Part shown: positions 18,623-62,463 of the stretch, piece by piece
Layout of the letters: every line of letters begins with the position of its first letter
How positions within the stretch are numbered: position 1 is the first letter of the stretch
From: Marsupella aquatica
Taxonomy: Eukaryota > Plantae > Marchantiophyta
Direction: 5' to 3'
Length of the DNA stretch: 64,000 nt
Assembly: GCA_973895155.1 (NCBI GenBank)
Contig: OZ316899.1
Location: 7,567,241-7,631,240 of the forward strand
The notes under the pieces: model-generated
Told to the model about the DNA's origin: nothing
Database searches by the model: none
Seen by the model: the letters and a program-made list of their open reading frames with translations, nothing else
Made by a program: the position numbers and the translations under genes

Positions 18623-18648
18623 GAGGTGGTTAGCAAAGGGTGGAAGCA

Positions 18649-23850: not shown

Positions 23851-24169
23851 GTGTGTCAACCGTCGTCTTTCACCTCCTGTCAGCTTAGGTCCAAGTGATG
23901 GCTCCCAGGTCTCCTCTACCGGTACACTAGAGGAAGAGGACGACGCCATTGGTTTCTATGCCACCTCCTCAGACGATGGCACATGCTCCTTTACACCATC
24001 ATTTGAGCAAACAACTCCTCCACTAGCATGGGCCACCAACTCTACATGCCCATCCATCACATCCCATGTACTCCAAGGATGCCTCTACCATCCTGGAAGG
24101 CAACGAGCTCATCACCAGGCGTGAAGTAACCACAGACATGGTCCTAAGTCTCCGCTGCTCGGCCATCGC

Positions 24170-29606: not shown

Positions 29607-29617
29607 AGTTCTTTGAG
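29607..29617 (-). promoter_or_regulatory. Self-priming PBS: 11 nt complementary to an LTR-internal sequence
   Basis: On the minus strand CTCAAAGAACT directly follows the 5' LTR. Its complement AGTTCTTTGAG lies in the LTR at 29785-29775, 26-29 nt downstream of a TATA (29814-29811). No TGG tRNA-type PBS. Confidence 0.8.
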
Positions 29618-29979
29618 TGAAATCCGTGAAAGACATACTGTCATAAAACACGTAAGAACACACACAGTCAAGCCAAACCCACTCCGCAATGGAGAATCTA
29701 GGTTGAAGCTAACGGGACACCATAGCCAAGGAGCTCCACTCACTACCAAGGCTCTCCCAATGCCAAAGGCTCAACTCAAAGAACTAACCGTCCATTGAGC
29801 CTCTCCACACTATACCCTCCAACCCTAAGGGCGGGTCCTACTAGAGGAGTCACCCTCAACAGCACCCCCTCTAACCCTCTACCATGGAACCAGACTCCTA
29901 ACTAGGCACTATGGCCCATCTAAGGTATGGACTCCGCTAGCACACTACATAGTCTAGCAGGCTACGTATGGTCATGACA
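29618..29979 (-). repeat. 5' LTR (repeat B) of the DNMT-Gypsy
   Basis: Direct repeat of 20214-20581; TG...CA ends. Confidence 0.92.
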
Positions 29980-42640: not shown

Positions 42641-43139
42641 GAGGCAACCCCATGCTATAAAGCGCCATGGATGAGCCAATCCTTGTCAAAGACGTCCTGA
42701 TGTTGAGGCGCATTGTTGGTTGTGGGCTTGCATGGTGAGACAATCACAAATTCCTGAGGAGGTTGGTCAATCCTACATGCATCCAGGGCACCACCGATGA
42801 GCCATCCTTCATCAAACATGGGGGGTTAGACTAACCATTCACAGGCGTTGCTACATGACTGCAAGTTGCACTTGGGGCGGTCTCTTGACTATTATTGATA
42901 GTGGCGGATCTGGGCGATGCCTACTGAGCAACTCTTGCTTCACGACAAAGTTGCCGTCCACTATTTGCACGGGCAGATGCCACAATTGGTCCTAAACTTT
43001 CCGCCTCATGGGAGGCCAATTATGTTGTTGGGGTGTGCCGCAAGCCCTTGCTTCTTCTTGTAGTTGTCAGCCACTAACTGAGTAAGTTGGCGCGACACTT
43101 GGTGCAGCACTGGATTCAGGAATTGGGAGTGTCGCACTT

Positions 43140-44429: not shown

Positions 44430-45075
44430 GTGATATAGTCATGGGCAACGAGGGGCCAGGGGCAAGGTGCAACCTTAGTCTGGGTGGGGAGGTAGCTGCC
44501 AGGGCAAGGCGCAGCAAGGAGCAATGGGCAATGGTGGGCGGCCAGCCTTGGCAACCAAGGCGCAAGTGAGGGCTAACGGTGGGTTGCCAACCGCGGTCCA
44601 GACATGGATGCACAGCAAGGGGGCAAGGCACGAGCCCGGGCACAAGTGAGGGGAGGGGTTTTTGTCCAGGCATGGAGGCTCAGCGTGGCAAGGAGCAATG
44701 GGCAACAATGGGCGGCCAGCTAGCAACCAAGGCGTGAGCAAGGGCTGACAATGGGTTACCAACCGCAGTCCAGGTGTGGAAGCATGGCAAGGGGCCAAGG
44801 CGCAAGCAAGGGGAGACAACGGGTTTTTGGTCCAAGTGTGGAGGCGTGGCAAGGAGCACAAGCGACAATGGGTTTTTTGAGAGCATGCTTGGACCTGGTG
44901 GCCACATCAAGGCAAGCACGCCTAGGTTGGGGTGACACGGGCATTAGGGGAGCAATGGGCAAGCAAGCGGGCAGCCACGGCACGACGACACCACTTGGAC
45001 CGAGTAGAGGCCATTGCAGGGTGGAGGCAAGTCCATGGGCTGTGGCCATGGCAGCATATGCCAGTCCAGGCATGG
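44430..45075. repeat. GC-rich diverged tandem repeats (~173-bp period with shorter subunits)
   Basis: AGGAGCAATGGGCAA..GGGCGGCCAGC at ~44517 and ~44691; AACCGC.GTCCAG at 44589 and 44761. Confidence 0.7.
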
Positions 45076-46411
45076 GATAATCTGTTGGGGCCGTGACTGT
45101 GGAATAGTCATTGAATGGAGTTAATATTAGAAATTTTGCAACTTTTTATGGAAAGTCGCGCTCTTTTAAAAGCGTCACTCTTATTCTGGATGCTTTGGAA
45201 AGCGTCCACCTTGTTACCCAATGCTTGCAATAGTGTTTACTGAATGTTAAAATTTCTAGAAAATATGGAGCCGATATATATAGACGCCTTGTGAGGCGTC
45301 CGACCACTCAAGTTGACTTTACTAGAAGCATCTGCAGATGACCACTCACTTCTTTGATGTTGTCTGAAGTGTCCAACAGCACACCAACACTTTTTGAAAC
45401 ATCCACTTGAAAGGACAAAAGTTAGACGCTGTCAAAGAAGGGATTAAACTTCCCGACGCTTTGTGAAGCATCCATTAAAGTACTGACGCTTTGTGAAGCG
45501 TCTATGTTTGGAAGATAAAGAAAGACGCAATACTTTCAAAATTGTCCGCCAAGTATCATTGCCGTTCATAAACGTTTGCTACCCCAAAGGCGACCTCAAT
45601 GTACCAATGCTTTTTGAAGCATCCATCCAAAGTTAGAATTATTTTAGTTTTTTGCAAGTTTAGATTTTTACTGGAACCACTTGATTATTTAGAATGCTTA
45701 CCGACCTTAGTTTGATCTGAAATTTTGTGTGCAGGATCCTTGTTTATCAGACTATGCATGGGGTTGTGTACTTCATTAGTTATCAGTGAGTTTCATCAGT
45801 CACTAATATCAGTCCAACATTGGAACTCAGCAAATCAGCTGAGATGATTTTTTGGGGGGCACAACCCAATTGCAGTCCGCGCCTTTGTCGGCGCCTCTCT
45901 CAGGTTGGATTGAGTACTTTACTTCGGACCATTTCTTATGTCGGCTGCCTCTCTGACATTAAAGGAGAATCTTAAGTTTCATCTTGGCGGCCTCTCTGAG
46001 ATTTCCTCAAAGTTCAGTTGAATCTCAGCGAGCCCCGCCAAGATCCAACTGAAATTTCAAGGAAAAAGAAATGGTTTTGACTAGCAAATCAGCTAAAAAA
46101 AACTTCTCACACAGGGTCTTTGATATATCATGGGGTGTCGCTACTAAATCTCAAAAAGGATCCATACAACACATCGTACAACATAGTCCATAAAACACGT
46201 CCCTTTCCAAGACTCATCTCAAAGACCCTCATTGACTTATCCAGGAGAGCTCGGCATGACATTGAAAAACAACATGGGGTCGAGTGTTGAAAGTACAGGA
46301 CCAGAACATAACCTTTGGAGGAAATTTTGATTTTACTTCGTATAGAACATGTTGCTCTGGTGTGAAATATTCACAGATTGAATTCACAAAGGCAATCCAT
46401 TGATCCTCTAT

Positions 46412-46930
46412 CTACAAACTGATCGTCTGGTAGATTAGGTCTACAATAATCTTTTGTCTTATAAGCAATAAATGTTTAGGGTCAACCGGCAATATAGAGC
46501 CTCTAGAAAGATGCTCCATGTACATTATGACATATACTCCACAATTGTAACTATCGGGTTGGGCTGGAATATTGTCGCGAACGATGCGTTGCCATTGTAA
46601 TGGCGATAAGTGGGGACAACTGCGCAAGCGGGACAGGTCATGGAGAAACCGACCGACATTCACCAAATCATCGCATTCCCATGCTTTGTCTCCAATGGGA
46701 TCGAGCAAATGTAATTGCTGCAAAGTAAAATCGACCACAGCTAGTACCCAATGTTTTGGCCTATGGATGGGGATTAGAATGAGGTCGAATGAAAAGACGT
46801 CAATGCCCTTCACAAATGCCAACACTGCGTTGAAGCTGACGCATCCGCTTCCAGCTTGTGTATATTCAATTAATAGAAGTTGGGAACGAAGTGATAATTG
46901 AATTTCCTTATATTAAGCATCTTGACCTAG
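46412..46930 (-). pseudogene. Ulp1/SENP-family (C48) SUMO protease catalytic domain
   Basis: ILIPIHRPKHWVLAVVD (His), LLDP (Asp), PAQPDSYNCGVYVIMYM (Gln, Cys). N-terminal part frameshifted. Confidence 0.88.
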
Positions 46931-47015
46931 AAACTCAATACATAAACTCCTGGAGTCCCTCGGGACATAAAATGAGCCAAATTGTTTCAAAATTGGGAAC
47001 CTGCACCCGCACTAC

Positions 47016-47357
47016 TCAAACAAATGTGTTGGGTTTGGTGGCCTTGTAAGTTATCTTTAGCTTTCGCGATGGAGGTTGAATCTTGCGGTACGTCAAGGGG
47101 AACTTGATCTTTGAATCATGGAACTGCTTGGTACTTTCTTGCTTGCACAGAGAGACAAGGACTGTCGTAGTCTTGATGATCTGGATGCAAGGGAACCGAA
47201 CTCTATGACAAGAAGCCATCTCATCATACATCTGCTCTACAGCGATGTTCAACGTGGTATCACAATATTCCTTGTACATGTTGTGATAACCTGTACGACT
47301 CTGATACCTCACCCAGAAACCGAAGTTCTTAATTGTGGTGGGCTTCTTTTCAAAGAT
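47016..47357 (-). pseudogene. RPL18a: Captured terminal exon of 60S ribosomal protein L18a
   Basis: [42 protein letters not shown]..; begins right after an intron-like T-rich tract ending CAG; no upstream exons seen. Confidence 0.9.
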
Positions 47358-47904
47358 CTGGTAGACACATTATTCAACATTTGTTAACTTCAAAACTAGA
47401 AGGGTAACACATTAAACAACAAAGAAACTCACAACATCCTCCTTTGGTCCTTCAGAGTCTGTACTTTGATTATGAAGTTTGACTGAGTTTCTGTTTACTG
47501 AAAGAATGTGACTGTGTAAGAGTTCCGTTTGGCAGTGGATTGGTTGAAGCACTTCATGCTAGTGTGTTGTCCACAGCTCTTCAACCAGCTTTCGTCTTCC
47601 TTGTCTTTCACCACTTACAATGACATCAATTCAGCTAAGACCATAGAAGGTTCCAAAGCATCTAACTTGTCAAATCGCATTCTGTTACATCAAGGACTAA
47701 GGTGTTGGGTATCAAAGGAGACAGCACAACAAACACGCTGAAAAGACTTCAGGACTGGGTTCAACAAGGTAGTGAAGGTGCTTACAGCCATAGTAAGTAT
47801 GCATTCTGTATCTTTCTCTGTTGATGTGAGCTTGTGCATAATGGGAGTTGTAGTTGGCAAGAGTTCCATAAGGCCAAATATGAATAGATCCAGAAGTATG
47901 TGTA

Positions 47905-47946
47905 TGAACCAAGTGTAGAGTTGACTCTTTCTGAATATTGTAGTCT
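47905..47946 (-). pseudogene. Ubiquitin fragment
   Basis: DYNIQKESTLHLV is identical to ubiquitin residues 58-70; the flanks are not ubiquitin. Confidence 0.65.
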
Positions 47947-49449
47947 CTTTCTGAACGTACAGTTTGGTAGGGCCAACGCCATGTGATCATGTACTTGCTC
48001 TAGCTATAAAGTTCTGAAGATATAAGCATTTTCTGTTAGACCAGGCAACTTGGGAGTTGGTAAGTGTCACCTGCATCTGAGGGGCTACACCGGGGGCATC
48101 AGTGGAGGTTCACTTGCACAACACGACAGCCAGTGAATTTTCTCTTTGGTGCAACCTGCAAGGTGAGACTTTTGGTCTTTCTGGATGAAAAAATAGGATC
48201 TTAATATGATTGATATACATGTCCGTCGAGATCATGGGTTTATCACCAAGCTCTTTGTCTTAGGAAACTCATAAACTCAGAATCAAATATGTACTATGCA
48301 CGTTTCATGCTATGTGTATACTATGACCTGTAGTTGGAACCAAGACAGTGAATGGGAACTGATTAGTTTAGGTTGGTTGCTATTGGCGAGGCAAGTCAAC
48401 CTCCTGCTCGCCTTGCTCAGCAAAGGACGTGAACAGAGGACATCACAACAAAAGCAACACTTATGGTGAGGACCCGCAACACTGAACATGTGCGGCTTGC
48501 ACACAAGGCAGAGATGTTGCACCTTGAGTATGTTAGACTTGGGATCCTTCCAGCCCATTCTGCATGGTACTTTGAGTACCCTGTTGTTTCCAAGAACAAC
48601 TACAGCCGGCCTCTACCTGCTTCAGTACCCTTCCCAACATCCTTGGTATTTGTGTCTCTTGTACATGACCCGCCACAAATTAGGTGCCAAGGGTGTGTGC
48701 ACAGTTGCCAATATGACTGTCCTGCCTGTAGGGCTTCTGGCTCATAATTGGATGACCATTCTCTTGGATGCCGATTTTTGCACAGAGCACAATGTATCAT
48801 CTGGAACCACTCGCCATCCTGCAGTGTGCCTGGTGATGTTACTTGTCCTGCCCTCCCAGACCCCACCACCGGTCACTTTGGTGTCTACACATGTTTGGAT
48901 CACATGCTCTAGAGGACCACTTGTCACACCGCATGCACAGACCAGATACCATTGACCTGTAGCTTAACACTCTGACTTCAACACAAAGGATATTTACTTA
49001 AGCAAAATATCCTAATTTAAGAGGCTAGCAAACTCGCTTAAAAGTCTCTATTGAAAGACTGCTTTCATGACTGCTTTAACCTGGTGAACATTGCAACGTT
49101 CAATGAATTAATGGGCCATGTGATAACCTATAAAATGTGATTTATGCCTCACTTATTTGTCTCAGCCACTATCATAGCCTATTTAGGATGTATAAATTTC
49201 AACCCTTATGACAATGCTTCATACCAATCCTCTTTGAAGAATGCCTGTTTTACATGTCACGACTATTGTATGTGATTCAAATGCATGAAATGTTGTTGCA
49301 GATCTCCTTTGGTGAATCATAGCCACAATTAAAATTGAGGTGTTGGTGGAGCAATTGTATTAGGGGATCAGTTTTGTGTGTTGGCTCAACATACCAAAAG
49401 TATGTCTGCTCTGCATCCTTGTGTGGCCATTCCAATTCATTGCAGTAGC

Positions 49450-49593
49450 AAATGCCTTTGTACCTTAAATGCTAAATATATTTTACTTTTTGTGCAGTCT
49501 GCTAAATTATAGAGTCTATCTAAATGCCTTTGTACCTTAAATGCTAAATATATATTACTTTCTGTGCAGTTTGCTAAATTGTAGAGTCTATCT
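49450..49593. repeat. 72-bp tandem duplication
   Basis: 49450-49521 and 49522-49593 are nearly identical, just upstream of the PHD ORF. Confidence 0.9.
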
Positions 49594-49604
49594 CATGTGC
49601 AGGC

Positions 49605-50294
49605 ATGGCACGGCCTAAAATTCAAGCCAAAAAGCGTGTGATAGAGGTGAGAAACACAGGTGTACTTGGGGCAGATGCTACTAACTTCTCTACAAGTCAG
49701 ATTTTCCAGAAGGCAGCTCATTGTTGTGCCATTTGTGACGATGGTGGGGGCCTGGTCATTTGTGAGGGCCCTTGCATGAGGCATTTCCACCTCAACCCGA
49801 AGTCTGACCTTGCTGCAGAAAACAACTGTCTAGGGGTGGGCCTCCCGTCAACACACTAGGGAGACTGGATGTGCACTGATTGTTTGGAGAAGCAGGCTAA
49901 GTGTGCACAGTGAGCACAGTGTGGGAAGTTGGGGTCCTATGAGGGCTCTGTTGATGCTGCAGCAAATGTTAGGAAATGTCCAAACCGTTTTTGTGTGAGA
50001 TTTTTCTGTTTTGAGTGTTTGCCTGCTCATGCCACAGCTTGCCCACTTCATAGGTGCAAGGCATGTGGTGAGCATGATGATGACTACTGGACTGACATAG
50101 TCCACTGTGCTAGGTGTCCCACTATGTGGCACTATCATTGCCTGAAAGATCGTCAAGCGGAGGGTTATGCTTGTGACAGAGAAATCTATGATCACTCTGC
50201 ACATGGTGTTGATCGATGGATATTTTATTGTCATCGCCATGCCATTGATCCTATCTCGCGCACTCCTGTGAGAGATCACATATCTTGGCTGTGA
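49605..50294 (+). pseudogene. Stand-alone EDM2-type composite PHD-finger protein (two in-frame stops)
   Basis: CAICDDGGGLVICEGPCMRHFH...CGKLGS...CPLHRCKAC...CARCPTMWHYHCL...IFYCHRHAIDPISRTPVRDH follows the EDM2 PHD region, including its TPVRDH end. Single frame with stops at 49857 and 49911. Confidence 0.85.
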
Positions 50295-50886
50295 AGCTGA
50301 ACATTGTACATGCACAGTGCACCTGATGTGGATGTACTATTTTTTGAGATTGCAAAGATTCCAATTTTGAAAAGGAGTTGGATAGGCGAGTTTCTATAGG
50401 CAGCACTTATCTTGTGCTCTGGAGTTAGTGGCTGGGTACATGCCTATAAAAACTTATCCTTACAAGCCTTCTTGGAAGTATTTAGGCTGAGTGGTCATTT
50501 TCATAAACACTTTCATCAGACTGCTAAATTAAAATAGGACTTCTAAGTTGTAAGCGTATAAATTATCAGGCATGCAATTAATCAAATTGCCCTATAAGTT
50601 TGTCATTGAATGTATCCTCCTTTACAACAAAATATGTATGTGCCATGACAAGTTGGTTGCACTTCATTTCACCTTTGATATGGATTTTGTAGTATATATT
50701 CAAACAATGTCCTGCATCCGTGCAGGTGCCTAGTACGTATTGTTCACATATCCCTTGTACCTATCAAAATCGGACCTGAGCACCAGTGGGCCAGATCAAC
50801 TCAAAAAGCATGAATTTTGTTGTACTTGTATTGTCAGGTGAACCCATTCTTCCAAAATTCACTGTCATCATGTAGGGTGTGTGTAC

Positions 50887-51743
50887 ATGGAGCCTGGGAA
50901 ACGTAGAAAGTGTGACCACCCAGTAGTGTTTACAGGGGTCAGAGCGATTTTGGTCCATGGCCAGCATGGGTTGACCAAAGTGCATTGGCCAACTATACGG
51001 AAACGATTCTCTGAGCTCCATGGCACTGTAGTTCAGGACATCACTCCAGAGACTATACATGTTGTTGCAGGGACATGGCTATTAGTGATAAAGAAGTGGT
51101 CATGGTCCTACATGAATTCTGCAATTACTAAGCAAGGCCTAAAAGTAGTTGAGGCCTCTTGGATCACAGATTCCATAGCACATAAGATTGTACAGGATAC
51201 TGAGCAATATGAGCTGTGGGAGGATGAAGAAGTTACTGCATCAGCTTGGGCTGAACAAGAAGTCTGGGAAGCAAAGGCACGGCTTGCTGATCTCCAATAT
51301 GGACCTATACTCAACAAAGGACAGAGCTCTACATGGCTGAGGAGACGAAGCAACCAACCCCCATTCTGAAAGGGCTGAGCATGGTATTTGTGGAGGCGGG
51401 AATTGGAGAGGTTAAGTGCAAAGTGTACAAGTCCACAGTGCTTGACCTAGGTGGGACAGTGGAGGAGAATATAACAGAGGACACCACTCATGTCATTACT
51501 AAGTCATATCCCAAAGCCTGCCGCAAGTTTGGGAAGGGAGACATTCGTTTTTATGTCATGTCCCATAATGTGTTTGTGGTTTCATATGCTTGGCTTGTGG
51601 AATCAGTAGCAGCTGGGAAGCGTCAAAACCCAATGGACTATGATCTTTTTGAGGCCTGGCCACGGAAGGGTCAGGATCCTTACAGAGAGGACTATGAGAC
51701 AACAAGTGAGGAATGGGTCATTAGCAATTCTGAATCAGAGTGA
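50887..51743 (+). pseudogene. Tandem BRCT-domain protein (DNA polymerase lambda-like BRCT), one frameshift near 51340
   Basis: Two BRCT patterns: FTGV..LHGTVVQDITPETIHVVA..VVEASWITDSI..YEL and LKGL..LGGTVEENITEDTTHVIT..VVSYAWLVESVAAGKRQNPMDYDL. Confidence 0.82.
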
Positions 51744-51940
51744 GGAGTAGTAGCATCAGTTTGGACACAAGTTTTTTTGTATAAATCAGATCATTGAAAT
51801 AAATGTGATCTTTGAACTAATGTACCTTGTTATGGTTGGTGGCAGTTGGGCTTATTTTACTGTTGGCGGATTGTTGTTTCCTGCTGCCTAGGGGTGTCAC
51901 TGTAAACGTACTGGGTGGGCTCAAATCTCGGCGGTAGACT

Positions 51941-52470
51941 TTGGTGGGTATGTTGCCTTTCCTAGATCAACAGGCGCTATTATGGCTCCTCCTCCGGGTT
52001 GCCATATGGCTGGCCACAATTAGGACTCTCCTGCATGGGTTGGTGCTAAAACATTTCTTGGCACCGCCTGAGGATGCAAGAGATGCTGAATCTATCGTGA
52101 ATGAGGATGCACAGTCCGAAGTGGACATCTACTTTTCAGCAGATGAGTTAGACAAGCCCGATGTTGTAGGTGGTTCCTTGTTGCCTGATTTGGCAGATGA
52201 TATAGTTCTTTCACATGTCTGGCCGAGGGTTCTTGTGGTGTCCTGTGCACAAGATATCTGCAAATATAGACAAATTAATACACGGTGGAGGGACTTGGTA
52301 GCAACTTGCCCCAGTGGAGGGCATTGCATCCACTGCTTGTAGGCACGGATGCAAGACCCCCATGGCATGAGCAGGGTTTAGACCTTGATGATTTAATGTA
52401 CATGTCTGAGTACCTGAGGTTTGAGTGGCATCGAGAACAGGGTTGGTACCCATATCTCACCTGGTAATAA
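51941..52470 (+). pseudogene. F-box-like protein, frameshifted
   Basis: SLLPDLADDIVLSHVWPRV...CKYRQINTRWRDLV matches the F-box pattern; hydrophobic N-terminus. Confidence 0.65.
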
Positions 52471-52813
52471 GGTGAGATATGTGATACCGCTCTCACACCT
52501 ATGCCTGTGACTATACATGATTGGACTCTGATATGGTCATGGGTGTACATGCAGAGGCGGTACATTTGAGGACAGCGGAGGAGGTGGTGACACCCTCCAA
52601 CATTTAGGAATTTTGTGTCATTCACTTGACAGTAGGTACACTACTCGCAAACCTGTTTTTTTCTTTTGGGGTGGTTTAGGGTTTGTGAGAATTTAGTACA
52701 CGTTATGTTAACTCTTTTGGCAGATATAGTCAGGGATATATGGAACACAAATACCACCATTCGGCATCCTTGTTCACTGCTGTCCATGACTGCAGTGCTC
52801 CCAGCCTGTTACA

Positions 52814-55800
52814 ATGCACCCTGGTCACCACCCTCCCCAGACCCAGCCCAGGGCACAGGCACTGCCTTTGCATCATCCCACAAGGATATCACACCATGAT
52901 AATAAGCTTTGGCAGCGTGAAAGGTTACGAACAAGACTTTCAGGAGCCAGTAGGATGAGATGTCCTTGTGCAATCTGCCAAGGATCCCGTACCAGGGGTC
53001 TGAATGAGGTTTGGCGGCATATTGCGGTTCATGGAAGAGATCCACGACATCAAGTTTGGAATGATCCTGCAGAGGAAGATTCTTCCGACGAGGAGTGGAG
53101 GTTAGAATTTGATGTTGCCAATGCTGCAAGACGGACAAGTGAGGTTCTGCCTGGTGCATTTGAAAATGTTGTAGCTGGTCTCTGTGGGTTGTCAGCTCTC
53201 CAACAGGATGGTGCTCAGGCAGCACCACGTGACGAAGGAATTCATGTGGAAGAGATGGTGAGAGACATCTTCCAAGACTTGGATGCATTTCACGATGGGC
53301 TGGACAACGAAGAGGATACGGCTGCAGATGCAAGTGTGCCCCCTGTCGAAGAGCCTCTTGATGAGTTTGAGATAGGGCAGGAAACCCCTAGGCATGATGG
53401 GATGTTTGGCTCTCCCTTGCAAATACAGGAAGGCAGGAAGTCTTTGTACCCCGGTAGAAAATGTTCTAAACTGGGATTTGTCATCATGTTCCTGAACATT
53501 TGCGGCAACCACAATGTCCCCAACGTTTTGGTTTCTGAGTTGTTGGCATTCTTGCGAACAACTGTGCTACCAGATGGTAATATTTTGCCCAAGAACATGT
53601 ACAAGGCAAAAAGATGCATATCTAATCTTGGATTGAACTATGATTCCATCCATGCCTGTCCTGATGGGCATGTTCTTTTCAGAAAGGAGTATAAAGAATC
53701 GTTGACATGCCCTAAGTGTGGGAAGCACAGGTATTGGAACTCAGGAAAGTCTATGGTTCCCGCCAAGGTACTTTGCCATTTTCCACTCATTCCCAGACTT
53801 CAGCGGATGTTCAGAAGCCGTGCCATCTCGGAGATGATGACTTGGGCAACTAACAAGAAAAGTGATGATGGGCTACAATGACATGCTATAGATTCAAGGC
53901 AATGGAAACTCATAGATGAGATGTATCCCGAATTTGCTGTTGAGCCAAGGAATGTCAGACTTGGGCTGTCATTGGATGGGGTAAACCCATTTGGAGACAA
54001 GAACAACAAATTTTTGTGTTGGCCTGTAACTATTTTGAATTATAACCTTCCTCCTTGGATGACTACAAAGCGATTTTTTGTTCTGATGGTCCTACTAATG
54101 CCAGGGCCAGACAGTGTTGTATCTGCCAACATAGATGTGTTTCTGGCTCCCCTAGTGGAGGAATTGAGAAAGCTTTGGGAGGAAGGAGTCCTCACATATG
54201 ATGTCCTACAGAGGCTTGGGAGGTTGAACCCATTCATCCTTAGAGTCATCGTCATTCTGACTATAGCTGACTACCCAGCCCATGGGATGATATCAGGCCA
54301 AACAACAAAAGGATATTGTGCTTGTACTATCTATGGGCGCAATGTCACCAGTGAGTACTCCAGAGCCCTGCAGAAAGTGATATACATGGGCCATCGTCGT
54401 TTTTTGAAGGCAGATCACCCTTACAGAGAAAGACAGGCATTGATTGCACACTTTGGCAATGAGATTGAGCAACGTGGACCCCCGACACGAGTGACCAAAG
54501 AGGAGATCAGGCAGTGGGGAGCACTGAGGGATGACTATATCAAACAAGGGGGCAGGGAAGATGGAGTGAGTGATCCAATAAAGCGATATGGTGTAAAAAG
54601 ACTTAGCATATTGGACTTGGAGCTCAAGTATTGGAGGGTAAGCCTCTTGGAGTTGATGCTAATTGGGATACATGTTTTGGTTCAGAGCATGTGCATTCAT
54701 TTTGAAGAGAGAGACTAAACTTGAGGCATTTGCTGACGCTTTTGCATTGCAACGGTGCAGGAGTTTGAGCCAAGCAAACATAACATTGATGTTATGCACA
54801 TTGAGAAGAATATTTGTGAGAGTCTACTCAGATTCTTGTGTGGAGAGAAAGACACTGGTTCAGTGAGATTGGATCTTGAATAGAGGGGAATGAAACCCCA
54901 TCTTTGGTTGAGGCCACATGCCCACAGAGCTGATGTGCTCTTGAAGTACCAAGCGCCCTATGTTCTGACAGATACAGAGTGGCAACTATTTGTGCAGAGG
55001 TTGAGTTCTTTGAAGGTTCCTTCAAACTATGGCAGTGCTTTCAAGAAGCATATCATGACTAGAAAGCTTGGTAGTATGAAAAGCCATGACTACCATATAT
55101 TGATGCAACAGGTGTTGCCTTTATGTCTGAGGGGCCTGTTGCAGAAGCCTGTTCGTAATGTGATCATGCGACTCAATGATGTGTTTCGTCATATTTGTGT
55201 GAAGGTTTGGGATGAAATACACTTCCCACAATTGACAGGAGATGTCGCTCAGGTGCTGTGTGACCTGGAGATTTATTTTCCTCCCGCATTTTTTGATGTG
55301 ATGACCCACCTACTTGTCCATGTTGTGGAAGAGCTACACCAATTTGGGCCTATGAGTGCTCGTTGGTTGTACCCTTTGGAACGGTACATGAAGCTACTCA
55401 AAGGTCACGTGAGAACATATTACAAACCTGAAGCAAGCATGGCTAAAGGTTACATCAAGGATGAGACTCTGGGATTTCTGACCGAATACATAGCACAATA
55501 TGAGCATGTGAAGACCAGGGTGTGGAATTCTGATGAGGAGGAAGGGGTGATAGGTGAAGTACTGGAAGGGGCTGCAACCACAAAGAACCTGACCACATCT
55601 ATGAGAGACTTGGCACATGACTTTGTATTGCACAACACTGTGGTGATGGAACCCTGGATACAGTGAGTGCATACATGTGCTATAATCCAGTTCATGAGCT
55701 TAAATGTTGTGTGCGTGTGATTTTCTCCTTCAGCCTGTTCATATTTACCCAAGCTAATGTTGTGTGGTTGTTTGTTCAGGGAGTATGAGTCATTGAAGGC

Positions 55801-56400
55801 GGCCCATCCCACTGCAGGAACAACTTTTCCAGGTTTCATGGAGTGGATTAAAGTGGCAATTAGAGAGCATCACAAGACCCACCCAGACATGGATGCAGAC
55901 GTTTACCTACTGTCTAATGCCCTAGCCTAAAAGTGAAGACTTACAAACGAATGAGAGCATATGGGAATCACTTTCGAGTGAAGGATGGTGACAGTGCCTA
56001 CAGGGTGACAAATGACTGTGGGCTCATCACTGTATTTGAGCAACAGAGCCACAATCACGACAGGGCCTGGATGGAGATGGGATATGTGGGAGAATTAGTT
56101 GACATATGGGCTCTGGACTATGGGGCGGTGTCCAGTCCTGTGATTCTTATGAAAGGTTCATGGGTGCGGCAGGATTGGCTTGGTAATAGGGCTACCATGA
56201 AGAGAGACAACGACGGTTTCTTGCTGGCCAATTTCAGAGGGAAATTGCCCGAATGGTCTGAGCCATTTGTGTTTCCCATGCCAGTCAGGTGGAGCAAGCT
56301 TTCTTCCTGGATGTGGAAGACTCCCCAGGTTGGCGTGTAGTGTGTCATAAATAGGCCAGGCAACGTCGAATGGAAGGATCAAACCTTGAGTTTCATTTAC
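52814..56400 (+). pseudogene. CACTA Tnp2/TnpD transposase (transposase-associated Zn motif, Transposase_21, DUF4218/DUF4216-like regions); introns ~54638-54760 and ~55663-55779
   Basis: Motifs: RCPCAIC..H, IHACPDGHVLF..CPKCG, PLIPRLQRMF, EPRNVRLGLSLDGVNPF, NYNLPPW, IADYPA, IDVMHIEKN, MKSHDYH, FPPAFFDVMTHL, WLYPLERYM. A few stops. Confidence 0.95.
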
Positions 56401-56905
56401 ACTCTCATAGTGCCTTTGATCGTCGGCGTTCACACCAAGTGCTTGTAGTTCATGATAGCGGGGACTTCATTCCTGTGACAAGGGTAGATGCATTTGCTGA
56501 AGGAGGCAAATTCAGAGATGCAGATGCCAACAGTGTGCCTGTGCCATGAGTAATGTGAATTGTTTGCATGGACATTAGTGAGGGGATGTGTAATAAAGTA
56601 ATTCTGAAGCAACACAGATGTATGGATGGATGCCTGGTGATTGTGGATGCATTGTGTTATACGGGGTGACCATAGATGACATGTTTTTGTGGTCCAATAG
56701 GATGGAACAGAGTGACACAGAGATGTGTGAGTATGAAAGGAAAGCTATGGAACAACAAGCATACGTGAAAGCCAAAATTGCAGAACTGGATCTGGAAAAG
56801 GATGTGGCTGAATTGTAAGGGAACGATTCTCAACTACACCCCTCCGCTGATTTGTGTGACATGAATAGTTCAATGTGGCACTGAAATTGTGACTGTATTC
56901 TCATA

Positions 56906-59900
56906 TTGGAATGTCGTAGAGCAGCAGGTTTTTCAAAGAAACAAAAGGAGTACGCAAGAAGGGTGACCAACACTATCTCTGGGCCTGTGCGTCGGAGTGA
57001 CAGGTTGAGCAAGAAGGTCGTACCTACAATGGCAGAATGTGGAGATGACATGGATGCTATGCAAGTGGGTGCAGACACTAGACAAGAAGATGAGTATTTT
57101 CGAGAGGAAATGGATGAGGATGGGGGTTATGAAGATGAATACATTGCAGAGCAGCCCCAAAAGAAACAGGTAAGTAGTTTTCCCAACAAGCTAGGTTTAG
57201 AGTTAAAAACTCTTGTTGAGAGGTTTCATATGTTCAGTACTACACCCTATGTACCTTGCTTAGTTCCTGACATTGTAGTTGGTGATGTGATGCAGCGTCT
57301 TGCCAGTTCTGTTTTGCCTGCAAAGCCTGTGCATGCACCATACTAGCAGGGGGGCTGACCTCTGATCAAGGTTGGCGAGGTGGTAGTAGTGGTAGATCCC
57401 AGGCTGGTGCCCAATACTATGGCAGGGGGCAAGCTCTAGGTTATGCCCGTGGCAGAGGCAGAGCAGGCCCAAACCCATAGTCTCGTGGGTATGGACGTCC
57501 ACCTCAACCATGGGGATGTGAGTATATATATATATGCCAGTTATTTGTGAAGGCATGGCACTCCTGAATTTCAGACTACATATCAATTTTTGACATTGTT
57601 TGGGATGTATTGGATTCAGACAACATGAAATTCTGTCCACCTGCCATTGCATGCAGATTCTGCCCAACCTGATTGGGCAAATGCTGGTAATGATCAGTTC
57701 CAATGTCCACAAGGACAGACATGGGTTGAACCAGGTTGGGAGGATGGTGGTGGGTCGTGGAATGAACAAGGTTGGGAAGGTGGTGAAGGTAATTGGCAGG
57801 GATTTCAAAATACAGTACCTACAAATGTTGGAAGAGGGGCAGGTAATCTCTGATCTTGTCAGCAATGGAAGAACTCATTATATGTGGAGTCCATTGATGT
57901 GGGGGGGATTCTGCATATGTATAATAATAGAAAATGTATGTGTGCATGTTGGACAGTCGAACCATCGACTCAAGTATTCACTAATGCCCCTATGCAGATG
58001 CAGCACGGAAGGGGGCCAGGTATGTTGGTGAATGTTCATATGTTTTCCTATAGTTTGTACTACGTTTTCAGTACATATGTTTGCAGCCACATACCTAGAA
58101 AGTGACATCATCCGGCCCCTGTACTAGGCTGGACAGGTGGTCCAGGGTCACAACAATTCCAGAGTCCAGTCCCTGCACAGGCATCTACAGGCAGAGCTAC
58201 AGGTATGTATGTTTGAAGAATTTTTCTTGAAGTGAAGCATTGAATGTTGCCGTCATCCATTCTGCTGTATGTGGTTCTCAAGCATGAATGGCATTGTATT
58301 TTCCCAGGTGGCTTCAGAACCACAGGTAGGGTGAATGAAGGGGTGGCCAATACAACGCCCAGTACTACCAAGAGTAGTGCACGAGGGGAGGTGACAAAGA
58401 AAGGGAACGTAAAGTTGAATGAGAGACAATGGGTGGATGCTGAGTGTCCTCGTAAGAACCGTTGGCATGCTGATTTGAAAGCTGAAGTATTGCGTTATTT
58501 GATGTGAGTGTTATTAATTTTAAAAAACAACATCCAAAAGATTGGAAGACTGTATGTGAAAATGTTGCTGCCAAATGGAATTATGTGGGCAGTGATGATG
58601 GCGCGGACATAGGTTGCCTAGAGAGTACAGTAGGTAAAATCATAAAGCAAGAGAGGTGGAGAATGCATAAGGCTTGGAAGGAAGGTGGGCAAAAGCCAGA
58701 TATGCCTCCACCAGCCAGTTGTGATGATAAAGTGTGGGCAAGGTTAGTAGCTTATTTTGTAACAGATGCTTCTAAAAAGAAGAGTTCACAGATGACCGAG
58801 GCCAGGTTGAGTGTTCAGAACCCTAATCTGACAGGAAGGACCAGCATTGCACCGACAGCAAAACATTTGGTAAGAATCAATGGCCTAGCTATGTAATTTA
58901 TGCTACACTATGTACTATTTTTTAGTGTAAACCCATACATGTAAACTTTGTTTTTTAGTGTACGTTCCATGAATAATAATGATAATTTGTGTTTGCCATG
59001 CATGTGCAGAAAGCCCAATTGGGGCAAAGACCTTCAAAAGAAGAGTTGAGGGCTGATATTGTGAACACCCGGGCTCAAGAGGGTGCATCTGAATCCTCCA
59101 AGCATGTAAGTTATATGAGTTCTGATTGGTAATTTAATGACCTGCGTTGAATTTCAGGTGTACACTGTATATAACATTGATTGTGCATATATTGCCCAAC
59201 ATTTCATATGGAGTGATTGAACCTATACCCTTGTGTCATGTAGGGAGGTGGATCTTCACTTACAAAGATAAGTGGTCGTTTGAAGGCTGTCGAAACATGT
59301 CTTCCAGAGATCAATGAACGTTTGAATTCATTGACTGACTTGTTCCATGTGAACTTCAAGACATTAATGGAAGCTATTGTGTCGGTGAGAGATAAAATTG
59401 ATTCCAATTCTGCAGGAGTTCCACCATCACCACTTGAGGTGGCAAAGTCGATGCACTCTTCTGGCATGCCAACGACATGTAGGCTTGAAGGTAAGGCCTG
59501 TACAACTATGTGGGATATGATTAGTAAATGTATAGTTTGAATTGACATAGTTTGTTGAATGTGTTATTTTCAGTAACATATATTGTGGTTGTTGTGTCCA
59601 TAGAGAATAAAACAGGTGCTGCAGAGAAGAAGTATGAGAACCTGGCAAATACTCGCTGTAATTTAGAGGCAACAAAGTTGCAGTCTGTACAAGCAACTTG
59701 TTTGACAGAGGGCAGTCAACCATGTTTGGATGAGGATGACATTGGCAAGGGAGTGGATGATATCAATGTTGGGGCAAATGAGGATATCAGCAAGCATGAC
59801 AATGATACCATTGAGCCAGATTCATGCTATGTAGATCTTGACTCCATTGCAGAGATAAATGATTTGCAGAATGTATCATTCTCAATGACAGGTGTGCCTC

Positions 59901-60400
59901 TTGTTGAGATAAATCCAACCAAAGAGTTAGTTGGTATGACACTCCCAGGTGGTGAACTTGCTGCTGTGACAGTCCTAACAGAGGAACCTACTGAGCCTAG
60001 CTTCACTACTGTGAAGAGAGGAAGCATGCGCACACGAAGCAAGTCTGCTGGTGGGAGCAGAGCCACGTCAAAGGTTTCATACAAACCTCCAAGAACGGTG
60101 CTGGCAGAAAGATCTAAGGTGGAAGTCGGGAAAGCACCTAATGCTGAGGGACAAAGTGGCTTGTTAGCTGTTGATGAGAGTGGAACACGAGTAGGATTTG
60201 GCAAAGTGTAGGTTGGTTCCACAACGTTCCATGGCAAGCGGATTCCCCCAGGTTATTCAGTAGTGTTAGTCACATTACTAGTGAAACCTAAAGCTGTCCT
60301 TCCCATTCCAAACACAAATGATGATCCTCCTCGAAAGACACTTGGAGATGCTGCAGGTTCTTTGGTATTATGGCCAAGCAAGTTCATAGAGGATCCATAA
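56906..60400 (+). pseudogene. CACTA TnpA/Ptta-like second gene, multi-exon
   Basis: 58504-58870 PPASCDDKVWARLVAYF..KKKSSQMTEAR (Ptta/En-Spm pattern). C-terminal FHGKRIPPGYSVV..LPIP..TLGDAAGSLVLWP (Tnp1/En-Spm C-terminal domain pattern). Confidence 0.75.
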
Positions 60401-60899
60401 CAATGTCATGCCATTATTTGTTTGTAGTGTGAGTCATGTTATGTAGATTTTAGATGTCAAGAAGGAGTACAAGAATCATGTCCTCTTGGAGATTCATAGT
60501 ATCATGCATGTGCTTTCAGTTATCTCATCATACAGTCATCAATTATGAGTTCCTGTTTTGTCTGAATTACATTGATCACATTGTAAACTATTCCATTGGA
60601 ATTCAAATGATCTACATTTTTGAGCAAGATTGTGATTCTGTTTAATTCTTATTAATGTTTTGTGTAGGATCTCCTTATATGATGCTTTGTTTCATGTGAA
60701 TGTCATTCATGCTATGTTCATTTCTTGTATTCAATGTGTTATATTTCTAAAGTTAGAACATCAAGTTTCTATGTATTGTAATGTGGAGTGCTCTCTCTCT
60801 TTACGAACTGTACCTCTGTGTTCATTAGTCATGGTTACAACTTGCATGTGAACCTTATTAGTTATAAACATGATGATATAGAGTCCCAAATGGTTCTGT

Positions 60900-61255
60900 T
60901 GTGTGACCCGGGCCAGGGTCTCCATTGGTCTCTCCTGTGACACTAAATGGTCACACGCTAGTCGTTGTTGAATGCGGGTAAGTCATGTATGTGACTTACC
61001 ATGTGACTCGTTAAAGTCATATTGTAGTAATGTAGAAACAAGGCTAGACTCCACAATAAAGTCATAGATCAGTCACAAATGGGTATCAAGGAAGTCACAA
61101 AGCCCAGTATTAATAGTGACTTCCATTTTTTGGTCTCAACTTTTGCAACTCCAAGGGTCACAGCGTGGGTCAAGTCACGTTGAGTCACAATGAAGTCACA
61201 TGAGCCAAAATGAGTCACATATTGTGGTCTCAATTCACCTCGAATTCTTCTAGTG
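60900..61255. repeat. CACTA right subterminal repeats and TIR
   Basis: About 15 AGTCAC/GTGAC motifs in both orientations, ending TAGTG at 61251-61255. Confidence 0.8.
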
Positions 61256-62463
61256 GGATCAAGAAGATTGGGATCACTTGGAAACTGAAGCCAGAACACC
61301 ACTATTTGAGGGATCTCCATCCTCATGGTAAGGTTGTCCTTAATTTATCACAACTATGGAATTTCATCCATTGAATATTGGGCAGACTAAGTTGTAGTGC
61401 CAGGCATGCCATCTAGCTAGCTACCCGGACTAATTGCAAAAAGTCTGGTTTTTGTGGTTTTGCAAATACAGGTTGGGTGCAACTTTGTTGATGTTGAATT
61501 TGCAAGGAGTTTTCAATGGTTCGGATGTCCATACAGATGCACTCTTCCAATTGTTCCACACCAAACTCTTGCCCCAACCAAACACTCTCCCTGGATATGT
61601 GAGGGAGGCTAAGAAGTTGTTAGCCTCAATTGGATTGGCTTTAGAGACTATCCACATGTGCCCAGGTGGGTGCATATTGTATAGAGGGGTGTACAAGGAT
61701 CACACTCATTGCCCAGAGGAAACTGTAGGCTTCCACGGTATCGACCAGACACCATTGGAGACAAGATTGCAGAAAAGGTAATGTTTTCCTCAACGCAATG
61801 TGAAAACAAGAAAGTCTGACTTTTAACGTTGCGTTCTTTCAAACAACGTCATATATGACTATGTAATTGATTACTGTCTTTACGTCGTCCATCTAACTTA
61901 ACGTCATTCAAAATGATGTAGATATTTTTTTACATTGTAAGGGAACCCATAAGTAACGTCTTAAGGTACATCGTATTTAAGAAACGTCGTCCGTGACCAT
62001 GTTCGTTTTCCGGATACATAGTTTGGAAGGACGTTTAGGGTTATTGTCTTCAAATTGACAACGTTACATTGATTCTGGCAGGTTTTTTGTTATTTCCCAA
62101 TCACTCTCTGACTTCAGCACTTATCCACACTACAGACTTGGCATGTGGAGAACAAATCCCCACCAGGGATAGTGCGATACCACCAAGATAGTCTAGCATG
62201 GAAGCACATTGATGCCACTTGGCCGGATTTTGCCCAGGAGCCTAGGAATGTTTGTTTGGGGTTGGAAATTGATGGAGTGAACCCATATAAGCAACGACAG
62301 AAACCTAAGTCCATCTGGCCTGTTCTTTTGATAAATCAGAACATCCCTCCATGGTTGGCAATGAAGAAGGGTCATGTGCTTTTATTAGCTATAATTCCAT
62401 GACCCAAGGCCTGTAAGAATCCTGATATCTGTTTGGCTCCAGCTTATGAAGAGCTACATAATC
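61256..62463 (+). pseudogene. Fragment of a second, different CACTA Tnp2 gene, interrupted at both ends
   Basis: EARTPLFEG, NTLP..EAKK..IHMCPGGCILY, DSLAWKHID..FAQEPRNVCLGLEIDGVNPY, NIPPW, with GT-AG introns. Confidence 0.85.

What the first reader, a model, noticed from the sequence alone, without database searches (positions are those of the whole stretch)
49605..50294. Stand-alone EDM2-type PHD module next to a transposase
Seen: a 229-codon intronless frame with only the composite PHD region, ending in the TPVRDH signature. One of its two stops derives from a 9-bp duplication (GCACAGTGA/GCACAGTGT). Known: EDM2 PHD fingers bind H3K9me2-containing chromatin and act with ASI1/AIPP1 to allow full-length transcription across intronic heterochromatin. 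Inference: a TE-borne mini-EDM2 could act as a decoy or adaptor that helps the silenced element get transcribed. Its strong divergence with preserved Cys/His residues suggests long selection rather than recent capture.
Basis: partly seen in the sequence, partly recalled or inferred. Interest (0 to 1): 0.78.

Follow-up and report, generated by a model that had tools for sequence, protein, structure and literature searches.

The report
Transposon-borne mini-EDM2 histone reader gene
This is a broken copy of a small gene carried inside a high-copy plant CACTA transposon; the gene consists only of the histone-reading PHD module of the host factor EDM2, and its intact relatives likely read histone tails for the transposon, which would be an undescribed kind of transposon accessory gene.

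Summary
Window 49605-50294 (+) is a 229-codon frame with two in-frame stops: TAG at 49857 and TGA at 49911. The TGA lies in the first unit of a 9-bp tandem duplication. The frame encodes only an EDM2/NSD-type triple PHD module and ends in TPVRDHISWL.

It sits inside a roughly 14.4-kb CACTA element. The 3' end at 61399 is clear; the 5' end near 47010 is approximate. Summed contig depth in public DNA runs is about 100 times that of the flank. The same strand carries a tandem-BRCT ORF, a TNP2 transposase and a TnpA-like ORF.

Intact relatives of 187-245 aa exist. They form one clade (100/100 support) on a long stem, beside a liverwort-specific EDM2-like paralogue clade. Subfamilies are only 38-53% identical, yet 19 of 23 Cys columns are invariant. 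This fits one old capture followed by selection, not a recent fragment.

Against a function here: this copy is dead, and over 99% of contig depth in two organisms shares the 9-bp insertion. I found no RNA evidence and could not fetch the relatives' genomic context.

The function is inferred: a nuclear H3-tail reader that aids transcription or placement of the silenced element. I rate it a new variant of a known kind, moderately interesting.

The parts
47010..61399 (+). CACTA (EnSpm-type) DNA transposon that carries the PHD frame. The 3' end is firm; the 5' end is approximate.
   Evidence: The 3' end reads ...GTTGTAGTG at 61392-61399, with AGTCAC-type subterminal repeats at about 60900-61250. 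Summed contig depth in four runs rises between 46714 and 47318 and falls after about 61443. In X1 it goes from about 170-217, to 1400-7800, to 443. CACTAC at 47010 is the only candidate 5' terminus. The flanking trinucleotides are CCG and CCA.
49605..50294 (+). Pseudogene copy of the stand-alone EDM2-type triple PHD gene (229 codons, two in-frame stops).
49857..49859 (+). In-frame TAG, private to this copy.
   Evidence: nearly all contigs in X1, X2 and X5 read C at 49857.
49905..49922 (+). 9-bp tandem duplication. Its first unit ends in the in-frame TGA (49911-49913).
   Evidence: the form without the 9 bp is 0 of 2846 depth in X1, 1191 of 165054 in X2 and 172 of 172 in X5.
49450..49593 (+). 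Two copies of a 72-bp tandem repeat directly upstream of the ATG. Each unit ends in an acceptor-like tgtgcag.
50887..51743 (+). Second accessory ORF, a tandem-BRCT protein. It is frameshifted in this copy near 51291-51369.
   Evidence: Pfam BRCT 33.6 bits, above the cut-off of 21.3. An intact 294-aa relative, P0162, is 59% identical, and the two window pieces are collinear with it. An X1 contig has 16 more bases at 51217-51580.
52790..56340 (+). TNP2-type transposase, in several frames (introns or decay).
   Evidence: Transposase_21 217.7 bits, DUF4218 93 bits, and Transpos_assoc 22.8 bits (below its cut-off).
58486..58896 (+). TnpA-like ORF.
   Evidence: Transposase_24 26.1 bits, below the cut-off of 28.7.
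47016..47369 (-). Antisense fragment of ribosomal protein eL20 near the element's 5' end, probably a captured host fragment.
   Evidence: Ribosomal_L18A 59.7 bits. It lies in the high-depth part.
60900..61399 (+). 3' subterminal repeat region and terminal inverted repeat.

Best explanation
The frame at 49605-50294 is a dead copy (two in-frame stops) of a roughly 226-residue gene that lies inside a high-copy CACTA transposon and belongs to a family of small proteins made only of an EDM2-type triple PHD module; these proteins likely act as nuclear histone-H3-tail readers that would help the element be transcribed through, or placed in, silent chromatin.

Shown directly:
- the frame, its two stops and the duplication;
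- its position upstream of a tandem-BRCT ORF, a TNP2 transposase and a TnpA-like ORF on one strand;
- a step of about a hundredfold in contig depth across that block;
- intact relatives with a conserved start (MARxK..., basic) and a conserved end (a stop 2-12 codons after DHIS);
- one clade for the small proteins, set apart from all full-length EDM2-like proteins and next to a liverwort-specific paralogue clade;
- near-invariant zinc ligands;
- a confident fold model that matches NSD PHD5-C5HCH and PZP histone readers.

Inferred:
- one old capture of a host EDM2-like PHD module, without its RFD-like N-terminal domain and its C-terminal region;
- maintenance by selection in active element lineages;
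- nuclear localisation, from the basic N-terminus;
- binding of an H3 tail.

Most speculative is the mechanism. A close second is that it tethers the transposition machinery to a chromatin state. This copy makes no full-length product.
For: Family and origin.
- One search found two intact proteins of 226 and 220 aa at 80% and 73% identity, out of 169 candidates.
- (HMMER against 1.84 billion representatives) gave 252 hits at E<=1e-3. The seven best (E 7e-73 to 4e-33) are all 166-245 aa. Liverwort, fern, algal and angiosperm EDM2-like proteins follow (names).
- In the tree (49 rows, LG+C20, careful search) the 10 small proteins form one clade at 100/100 on a stem of 2.61 changes per column. That clade is sister to 6 liverwort paralogues at 92/80.
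- The tree (127 rows, quick search) gives the same grouping at SH-aLRT 89.

Constraint.
- Among 8 full-length members, 38-53% identical between subfamilies, 19 of 23 Cys columns are invariant against 33 of 192 other columns.
- The window copy departs at only 2 of the 52 columns that are invariant in the other 7 members.
- In the zinc-finger cores the listed copy variants run 9 synonymous to 5 nonsynonymous, against 4 to 20 elsewhere. Fisher p = 0.005, but I chose the cores post hoc.

Transposon-borne.
- establish this, as laid out under parts.
- The BRCT neighbour is likewise a conserved intact ORF in a relative.

Fold.
- The model has pLDDT 84.3 and pTM 0.77.
- Foldseek matches JADE1 and BRPF1 PZP domains at E 4e-5 to 6e-5, and NSD1/2/3 PHD5-C5HCH at probability 0.99-1.00.
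- VIA-align gives NSD3 4gng_D at Z 5.9, rmsd 3.3 A over 90 residues.

EDM2 biology. I read passages of PMC7529245 and PMC7472560. They state that the EDM2 PHD fingers bind H3K9me2-marked chromatin and that the ASI1-AIPP1-EDM2 complex promotes distal polyadenylation across intronic heterochromatin.
Against: - This copy is dead, and its sisters mostly share one lesion. Forms lacking the 9-bp insertion are 0 of 2846 depth in X1 and 1191 of 165054 in X2. No majority alternative at the TGA was listed among the 40 of 48 rows shown. So the bulk of the family in those genomes cannot make the full protein, and the element evidently amplified without it in cis.
- Over all 38 listed coding variants the ratio is 13 synonymous to 25 nonsynonymous, close to neutral.
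- Several relatives are truncated or frameshifted: P0011, P0013, P0014, P0018, P0025 and P0038.
- I could not fetch the DNA around any relative, so it is not shown that they sit in CACTA elements, and no codon-level dN/dS was possible.
- Pfam matches to the three NSD-type PHD models are mostly below their curated cut-offs in the small proteins.
- The fold matches have modest Z scores (5.9), and whole-model TM-scores are 0.2-0.3.
- The acidic stretch that precedes the first Cys in EDM2 is replaced by QKAAH in the small proteins, so the histone mark read may differ.
- The module lacks every other EDM2 domain.
- The 5' end of the element is not well defined. Only CACTAC is there, no 5' subterminal repeats were found, and the putative target-site duplication matches at 2 of 3 bases.
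Confidence: 0.6

Rival explanations
1. The PHD frame is a transduplicated host fragment with no function for the element. It was picked up like the eL20 fragment nearby, is carried passively, and is decaying.
For: - The same element holds an antisense eL20 fragment and a ubiquitin-like 13-residue string, so this family does capture host pieces.
- The window copy has two stops.
- More than 99% of contig depth in X1 and X2 shares the 9-bp insertion.
- The 38 listed variants run 13 synonymous to 25 nonsynonymous.
- Many relatives are truncated.
Against: - Passive fragments do not stay open for about 220 codons between lineages only 38-53% identical.
- They would not keep 19 of 23 Cys columns, a common start and a common end.
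- The clade is monophyletic on a long stem, not scattered among host EDM2 proteins as repeated recent captures would be.
- Identity to any full-length EDM2-like protein is only about 30-36%.
Confidence: 0.25
2. The frame is not a stand-alone gene. It is one coding exon of a longer element transcript, spliced to the BRCT ORF or to the transposase, so the PHD module would be a domain of a larger protein.
For: - All ORFs lie on one strand.
- The ATG sits 2 bases after an acceptor-like tgtgcag.
- The last codons, CTG TGA, contain a GTGA donor-like string.
- En/Spm-type elements are known to use alternative splicing of one transcript; I recall this and did not test it.
Against: - Relatives from different subfamilies all stop 2-12 codons after DHIS, and they start with the same basic MARxK leader.
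- The BRCT relative P0162 has its own Met and stop, matching the window's ATG at 50887.
- The one acceptor I checked by eye, at 50837/50838, would run straight into a TGA.
- HMMER found no protein that joins this PHD type to BRCT or TNP2. Of the 150 listed hits, I checked domains for only a few.
Confidence: 0.1
3. It is an ordinary, possibly domesticated, host gene that merely lies beside a transposon.
For: Short PHD-only EDM2-like genes are annotated in Marchantia (280 aa) and in grasses (259-386 aa).
Against: - The frame has the same or higher summed contig depth as the transposase: about 2900-3500 in X1, against 15.7 for a unique flank contig.
- It lies between the element's 5' region and its transposase.
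- It carries two stops.
Confidence: 0.03

Closest known systems
EDM2 (ENHANCED DOWNY MILDEW 2) and its PHD module, chromatin-binding subunit of the ASI1-AIPP1-EDM2 complex
   Same: - It has the same composite module: a first PHD finger, an NSD-type PHD and a variant C5HCH finger, closed by TPVRDH.
- Forty-eight columns are invariant in an alignment with four EDM2-like proteins.
- EDM2-like proteins are the best long hits.
   Different: - Identity is only about 30-36%.
- It has no DNMT1-RFD-like N-terminal domain and no C-terminal region.
- It lacks a loop of about 20 residues in the second finger.
- QKAAH replaces the acidic stretch before the first Cys.
- It is multi-copy and transposon-borne.
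- Histone binding and partner binding were not tested.
VANC anti-silencing proteins of Arabidopsis VANDAL (Mutator-like) transposons
   Same: Both are separate accessory ORFs of a DNA transposon, proposed to counter host epigenetic silencing. I saw the abstracts of PMC5735166 and PMC10398659 in the search listing.
   Different: - VANC is a sequence-specific DNA-binding protein with no PHD module. I made no sequence comparison here.
- The present gene derives from a host histone reader.
- Its anti-silencing role is only inferred.
Pack-CACTA / Pack-MULE transduplicated host gene fragments
   Same: Both are host-derived sequences inside a TIR transposon. The same element also holds an eL20 fragment. 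I read passages on Pack-CACTA capture in PMC13317346.
   Different: - Pack elements are non-autonomous, and their fragments are usually recent and close to the parent gene. Here the element carries its transposase.
- The ORF is complete, with its own start and stop.
- It is only about a third identical to host proteins and forms an old, diversified clade.
NSD1/2/3 PHD5-C5HCH tandem and PZP (PHD-Zn knuckle-PHD) histone H3 readers
   Same: These are the best structural matches of the model. NSD3 4gng_D gives Z 5.9, rmsd 3.3 A over 90 of 97 residues. JADE1 and BRPF1 PZP domains give Foldseek E 4e-5 to 6e-5. All three NSD-type Pfam models match.
   Different: - Sequence identity is 17-27%.
- There is no SET or acetyltransferase context.
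- Z is modest, and a shared fold shows no function.
Short PHD-only EDM2-like host genes (Marchantia P0064, 280 aa; Triticeae, Miscanthus, Eleusine and Panicum, 259-386 aa)
   Same: They also consist of little more than the EDM2-type PHD module.
   Different: - They fall elsewhere in the tree: the grass proteins lie inside the angiosperm EDM2 group, and the Marchantia protein lies in the liverwort paralogue clade.
- They are annotated as single host genes.
- I found no function in print for them in the listings I saw.

Membership tests
EDM2 orthologue | Composite NSD-type PHD module (PHD-1st_NSD, PHD_NSD, PHDvar_NSD/C5HCH) with all zinc ligands | tested here: met
   24.3-27.1, 20.1 and 23.3-24 bits, at or just below the curated cut-offs; relatives reach the cut-offs (P0009 27.7, P0159 28.5, P0015 31.2 and 28.3); the ligands are conserved.
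EDM2 orthologue | TPVRDH(I/L) motif closing the PHD module | tested here: met
   window codons 220-225 align with GTPVRDH of four EDM2-like proteins.
EDM2 orthologue | N-terminal DNMT1-RFD-like domain (PF12047) | tested here: not met
   it is present in EDM2-like P0004 (48 bits) and absent from all six small proteins scanned. The window frame starts only 39 residues before the first ligand Cys.
EDM2 orthologue | Long C-terminal region with the methyltransferase-like part | tested here: not met
   the frame ends 4 codons after TPVRDH. EDM2-like proteins continue for about 800 residues.
EDM2 orthologue | Binding of H3K9me2-marked chromatin and association with AIPP1/ASI1 | not testable with these tools
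   This is known for Arabidopsis EDM2 from passages of PMC7529245 and PMC7472560. Nothing was measured here.
CACTA / EnSpm DNA transposon | TNP2-type transposase | tested here: met
   Transposase_21 217.7 bits (cut-off 28.6) and DUF4218 93 bits.
CACTA / EnSpm DNA transposon | CACTA termini as inverted repeats | tested here: inconclusive
   The 3' end CACTACAA (reverse strand, 61392-61399) is clear. The 5' side has only CACTAC at 47010. A search for the 20-nt 3' terminus in inverted form, allowing 3 mismatches, found nothing else.
CACTA / EnSpm DNA transposon | Subterminal short repeats | tested here: inconclusive
   The 500-base bin at 61000-61499 holds 8 AGTCAC/GTGACT hits, and no other bin in the window holds 3 or more, so no 5' cluster was found. 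A 20-bp tandem array lies at 61172-61220.
CACTA / EnSpm DNA transposon | 3-bp target-site duplication | tested here: inconclusive
   The flanks are CCG (47007-47009) and CCA (61400-61402), matching at 2 of 3 bases. The difference is a CpG-type transition, but the match is weak.
CACTA / EnSpm DNA transposon | Multi-copy in the genome | tested here: met
   summed contig depth is 1400-7800 across 46.7-61.4 kb in X1, against 15.7 for a flank contig identical to the window. The same step is seen in X2, X3 and X5. The tool cautions that depth is not a copy number.
Pack-CACTA transduplicate | Recent fragment close in sequence to its host parent, in a non-autonomous element | tested here: not met
   Identity to host-type proteins is 30-36%. 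The clade sits on a stem of 2.61. The transposase is present.
NSD-type PHD5-C5HCH / PZP histone-reader fold | Fold of tandem zinc fingers as in solved H3-bound structures | tested here: met
   pLDDT 84.3, and NSD3, NSD2 and NSD1 give Z 4.9-5.9 over 83-90 residues. This shows the fold only, not the ligand.

The most novel reading that the evidence does not exclude
A lineage of CACTA transposons, probably of liverwort-like plants, has long carried its own chromatin toolkit as two separate accessory genes. One is a histone-tail reader stolen from the host's EDM2 anti-termination machinery. The other is a tandem-BRCT protein. With them the element reads its own silent chromatin, either to keep its 14-kb transcript from ending early or to choose where it lands. 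That would make it a DNA-transposon counterpart of VANC anti-silencing factors and of retrotransposon chromodomains.
Probability: 0.3. Interest if true: 0.78.

Novelty: new variant of a known kind. Interest (0 to 1): 0.6.

Why it matters
EDM2 is the host factor that lets RNA polymerase read through heterochromatic transposon insertions. A transposon family that has kept a copy of just its histone-reading module for a long time would be a natural experiment on what that module does alone. It would also be a candidate case of a mobile element turning a host anti-silencing reader to its own use.

It would add a second, unrelated class of transposon-encoded chromatin factor in plants, besides VANC, and it would come from a non-flowering lineage. 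The paired tandem-BRCT gene hints at a link to DNA-damage or phospho-mark reading at excision sites.

Intact natural members exist, so binding specificity and effects on polyadenylation and methylation can be tested directly.

If the gene proves to be inert cargo, the case is still a clean example of an unusually long-lived captured ORF.

Tried and rejected
- No whole genome is held for this window, so I could make no census of copies.
- The look-up of sequencing runs listed no RNA holder. All laid runs are contigs of unrecorded kind, so nothing can be said on expression or splicing.
- Two metagenome scans for DNA of relatives failed. In one search, 139 pattern matches held no relative. One search gave one unrelated marine scaffold, L001, which I did not use.
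- Because of this I computed no codon-level dN/dS and saw no flanks of relatives.
- The repeat finder found no convincing terminal inverted repeat for the element. The 20-nt 3' terminus has no inverted partner within 3 mismatches.
- The sequence search of solved structures gave only single PHD fingers: AIRE at E 9e-4 for the PHD protein, and nothing below E 0.06 for the BRCT protein.
- The structure of the BRCT protein P0162 from a 4-row alignment failed (pLDDT 32.3). I made no fold search with it.
- Complex prediction of the PHD protein with the BRCT protein gave no verdict (score 0.00, controls not run). This says nothing for or against binding.
- The promoter/terminator scan is a bacterial consensus and is uninformative here.
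- Three look-ups of earlier findings of this scan returned nothing.
- Six literature searches found no report of an EDM2-type PHD gene in a transposon: EDM2+CACTA+PHD, transposon-encoded anti-silencing+PHD finger, CACTA+PHD finger+BRCT, EDM2-like+captured, EnSpm+PHD+accessory, and liverwort+CACTA+EDM2. The review PMC13317346 has no occurrence of EDM2, PHD or BRCT. These searches cover only the held library. PMC3890799 (Lei et al. 2014) is not held.
- I considered and dropped the idea that the 9-bp duplication creates a usable intron. The donor-like GTGAGC at 49910 and the next AG are 10 bases apart.

Full report
**What is in the sequence**

The + strand frame 49605-50294 reads 229 codons and a terminal TGA. 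It has two internal stops, TAG at 49857-49859 (codon 85) and TGA at 49911-49913 (codon 103). GCACAGTGA at 49905-49913 is followed at once by GCACAGTGT, so the TGA sits in the first unit of a 9-bp tandem duplication. Intact relatives have no insert there and read AKC-(A/T)QCGKLG. The frame ends RTPVRDHISWL. In an alignment with four EDM2-like proteins the match runs from CAICDxGG to GTPVRDH(I/L), with 48 invariant columns.

**What the frame encodes**

- Pfam finds the three NSD-type PHD models in order. PHD-1st_NSD scores 24.3-27.1 bits, PHD_NSD 20.1 and PHDvar_NSD 23.3-24. All are at or just under the curated cut-offs.
- Some relatives reach the cut-offs.
- Annotated EDM2-like proteins are the best long hits: Punica 1246 aa at E 5.8e-15 and 32% identity, then Cajanus and Spirodela. 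These are 5 hits among 384 candidates.
- The small proteins have neither the DNMT1-RFD-like N-terminal domain of EDM2 nor anything after the module.
- They lack a loop of about 20 residues in the second finger. They also carry QKAAH where EDM2 has an acidic stretch before the first Cys.

**Surroundings**

The same strand carries, in order:
- a tandem-BRCT ORF at 50887-51743;
- a TNP2 transposase at 52790-56340 (Transposase_21 217.7 bits, DUF4218 93 bits);
- a TnpA-like ORF at 58486-58896 (Transposase_24 26.1 bits, under its cut-off).

The block ends at 61399 with ...GTTGTAGTG, preceded by AGTCAC-type subterminal repeats. To the right lies another, more decayed TNP2 region. To the left lies a ULP1 protease ORF on the other strand.

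Contigs of four public runs laid on 45000-62000 show a step in summed depth. In X1 it is about 170-217 up to 46.7 kb, 1400-7800 from 46.7 to 61.4 kb, and 443 beyond. A flank contig identical to the window has depth 15.7. X2, X3 and X5 show the same step. The tool warns that depth is no copy number, but the step marks a repeat of about 14.4 kb that includes the PHD frame.

The 5' end is only approximate. CACTAC at 47010 lies within the rise, but no longer inverted repeat and no 5' subterminal repeats were found. The flanking trinucleotides are CCG and CCA.

An antisense eL20 fragment (59.7 bits) lies at 47016-47369, inside the high-depth part. This family therefore does capture host pieces.

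**State of this copy and its sisters**

A second laying on 49540-50340 listed differences shown by at least half of the depth.
- The TAG is private to this copy. C replaces T at 49857 in 2755 of 2864 (X1), 263982 of 265566 (X2) and 93.3 of 93.3 (X5).
- The 9-bp insertion is widely shared. The form without it has 0 of 2846 (X1), 1191 of 165054 (X2) and 172 of 172 (X5). One X1 contig end reads on as the uninserted form.
- No majority alternative at the TGA appears among the 40 of 48 rows shown.
- In organism D (X7) only the first-finger part, about 49696-49850 and 49918-49971, is covered, within unlike flanks.
- Changes private to the window are mostly G>A and C>T. That is what decay of methylated DNA gives.
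- The BRCT ORF is frameshifted here. Its two pieces are collinear with an intact 294-aa relative, and an X1 contig has 16 more bases there.

This copy is an old, dead one, and most of the family in two organisms cannot make the full-length PHD protein.

**The family**

- The word-indexed search found two intact proteins of 226 and 220 aa at 80% and 73% identity, 2 hits among 169 candidates.
- HMMER with their profile against 1.84 billion representatives gave 252 hits at E<=1e-3. The seven best (E 7e-73 to 4e-33) are all 166-245 aa. They come from unnamed Logan, JGI/IMG and ENA contigs of 1-13 kb.
- Full-length members share a basic MARxK-type start and stop 2-12 codons after DHIS. Other members are truncated or frameshifted.
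- Among 8 full-length members the subfamilies are 38-53% identical. Even so, 19 of 23 Cys columns are invariant, against 33 of 192 other columns.
- The window copy departs at 2 of the 52 columns that are invariant in the other seven.

**Trees**

For the trees I cut the module out of 165 hit proteins. Of these, 135 covered at least 150 profile positions.

The quick tree used 127 rows. I dropped four near-duplicates, three short rows and one protein with a duplicated module. It put the 10 small proteins on one side of a branch at SH-aLRT 89.

The careful tree used 49 rows that I chose: the 10 small proteins, 6 liverwort paralogues and 33 others. It was run under LG+C20 and rooted on Mesotaenium. 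The small proteins form one clade at 100/100 on a stem of 2.61 changes per column. That clade is sister, at 92/80, to a clade of liverwort proteins from Calypogeia, Riccia and Marchantia. These are 280-768 aa and distinct from the long Marchantia and Riccia EDM2-like proteins (names).

The long stem makes the sister placement less sure than the monophyly. The pattern fits one old capture from a liverwort-type paralogue followed by diversification. It does not fit repeated recent captures.

**Selection**

I could fetch no DNA of relatives, so no proper dN/dS was possible. The 38 listed coding variants among copies run 13 synonymous to 25 nonsynonymous, near neutral overall. In the zinc-finger cores (codons 40-62 and 122-136) they run 9 to 5, against 4 to 20 elsewhere. 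Fisher p = 0.005, but I chose the cores after seeing the data.

The stronger argument is the open frame and the kept ligands across lineages that are less than half identical.

**Fold**

A model of P0002 built from a 28-row alignment has mean pLDDT 84.3 and pTM 0.77. Residues 1-24 are disordered.
- Foldseek matches PZP domains of JADE1 and BRPF1, some of them H3-bound, at E 4e-5 to 6e-5. It matches NSD1/2/3 PHD5-C5HCH at probability 0.99-1.00. Whole-model TM-scores are only 0.2-0.3.
- VIA-align gives NSD3 4gng_D at Z 5.9, rmsd 3.3 A over 90 residues, with NSD2 and NSD1 close behind.

The fold is that of a tandem histone-tail reader. The ligand is not shown.

**Mechanism**

Passages I read state that EDM2 binds H3K9me2-marked chromatin. 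With AIPP1 and ASI1 it suppresses proximal polyadenylation in heterochromatic introns (PMC7529245; PMC7472560). Its PHD repeat is described as a likely histone-tail binder (PMC3632883).

From that I infer, without a test, that the small protein is a nuclear H3-tail reader. It would serve the element in one of two ways:
- by favouring read-through of its own silent 14-kb unit, or by competing with host readers;
- by tethering transposition to a chromatin state.

The module lacks all other EDM2 parts. An adaptor role would therefore need new contacts, and a decoy or tether role needs none.

**Novelty**

Six searches of the held library found no report of an EDM2-type PHD gene in a transposon, and one review on gene capture has none either. 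Transposon accessory factors that act on chromatin are known (VANC), and so is capture of host fragments by CACTA elements. I therefore rate this a new variant of a known kind.

The type, the carrier and the long constraint hold. The function is open, and this copy is dead.

Noticed in passing
window 50887-51743 (+): A second conserved accessory ORF of the element, a tandem-BRCT protein. It is frameshifted in this copy. An intact 294-aa relative (P0162, 59% identical) has the same basic MxPGKRRK start and an acidic end. The member P0163 was seen on 6 contigs.
   Followed up: partly
window 49450-49593 (+): Two copies of a 72-bp tandem repeat (94% alike) directly upstream of the PHD start codon. 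Each unit ends in an acceptor-like tgtgcag. An X5 contig joins 49466 to 49555 with 13 other letters between.
   Followed up: no
window 47016-47369 (-) and 47712-47999 (-): An antisense fragment of ribosomal protein eL20 (Ribosomal_L18A, 59.7 bits) and a 13-residue string, DYNIQKESTLHLV, that I recall as ubiquitin-like. Both lie in the high-depth 5' part of the element and are probably captured host fragments.
   Followed up: partly
window 61400-62402 (+) and 46412-46912 (-): The element appears to be nested in another CACTA-type element of lower depth. A TNP2-like region lies to the right and a ULP1 protease ORF (Peptidase_C48, 66 bits) to the left. Both flanks have similar intermediate contig depth.
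   Followed up: partly
window 45000-62000: Where the window differs from the laid contigs, it mostly has A where they have G, or T where they have C. In X1 the counts are A>G 100 and T>C 109, against 18-49 for each other type. This is the signature of deamination of methylated cytosines in this copy.
   Followed up: partly
window 849-6576, 8759-19608, 20214-29982: Three LTR retrotransposons, marked by direct repeats of 281-963 bp at 92-96% identity. One is copia-like and two are gypsy-like, judging by their ORFs.
   Followed up: no
window 38491-42654 (-): Long ORFs that look like a Helitron-type helicase, judged by eye from the translations. I made no family scan.
   Followed up: no
window 33523-35865 (-): A probable host gene with PP2C-like exons, judged by eye from the translations. 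It is the only non-repeat gene I noticed in the window.
   Followed up: no
window 45100-45620: A cluster of short palindromic GACGCTTTGTGAAGCGTC-like motifs. It looks like the subterminal region of yet another DNA transposon.
   Followed up: no
proteins P0028, P0053, P0072, P0107, P0064: Grasses (Miscanthus, Triticeae, Eleusine, Panicum) and Marchantia have annotated short proteins that are little more than the EDM2-type PHD module. They are separate from the transposon clade in the tree.
   Followed up: partly
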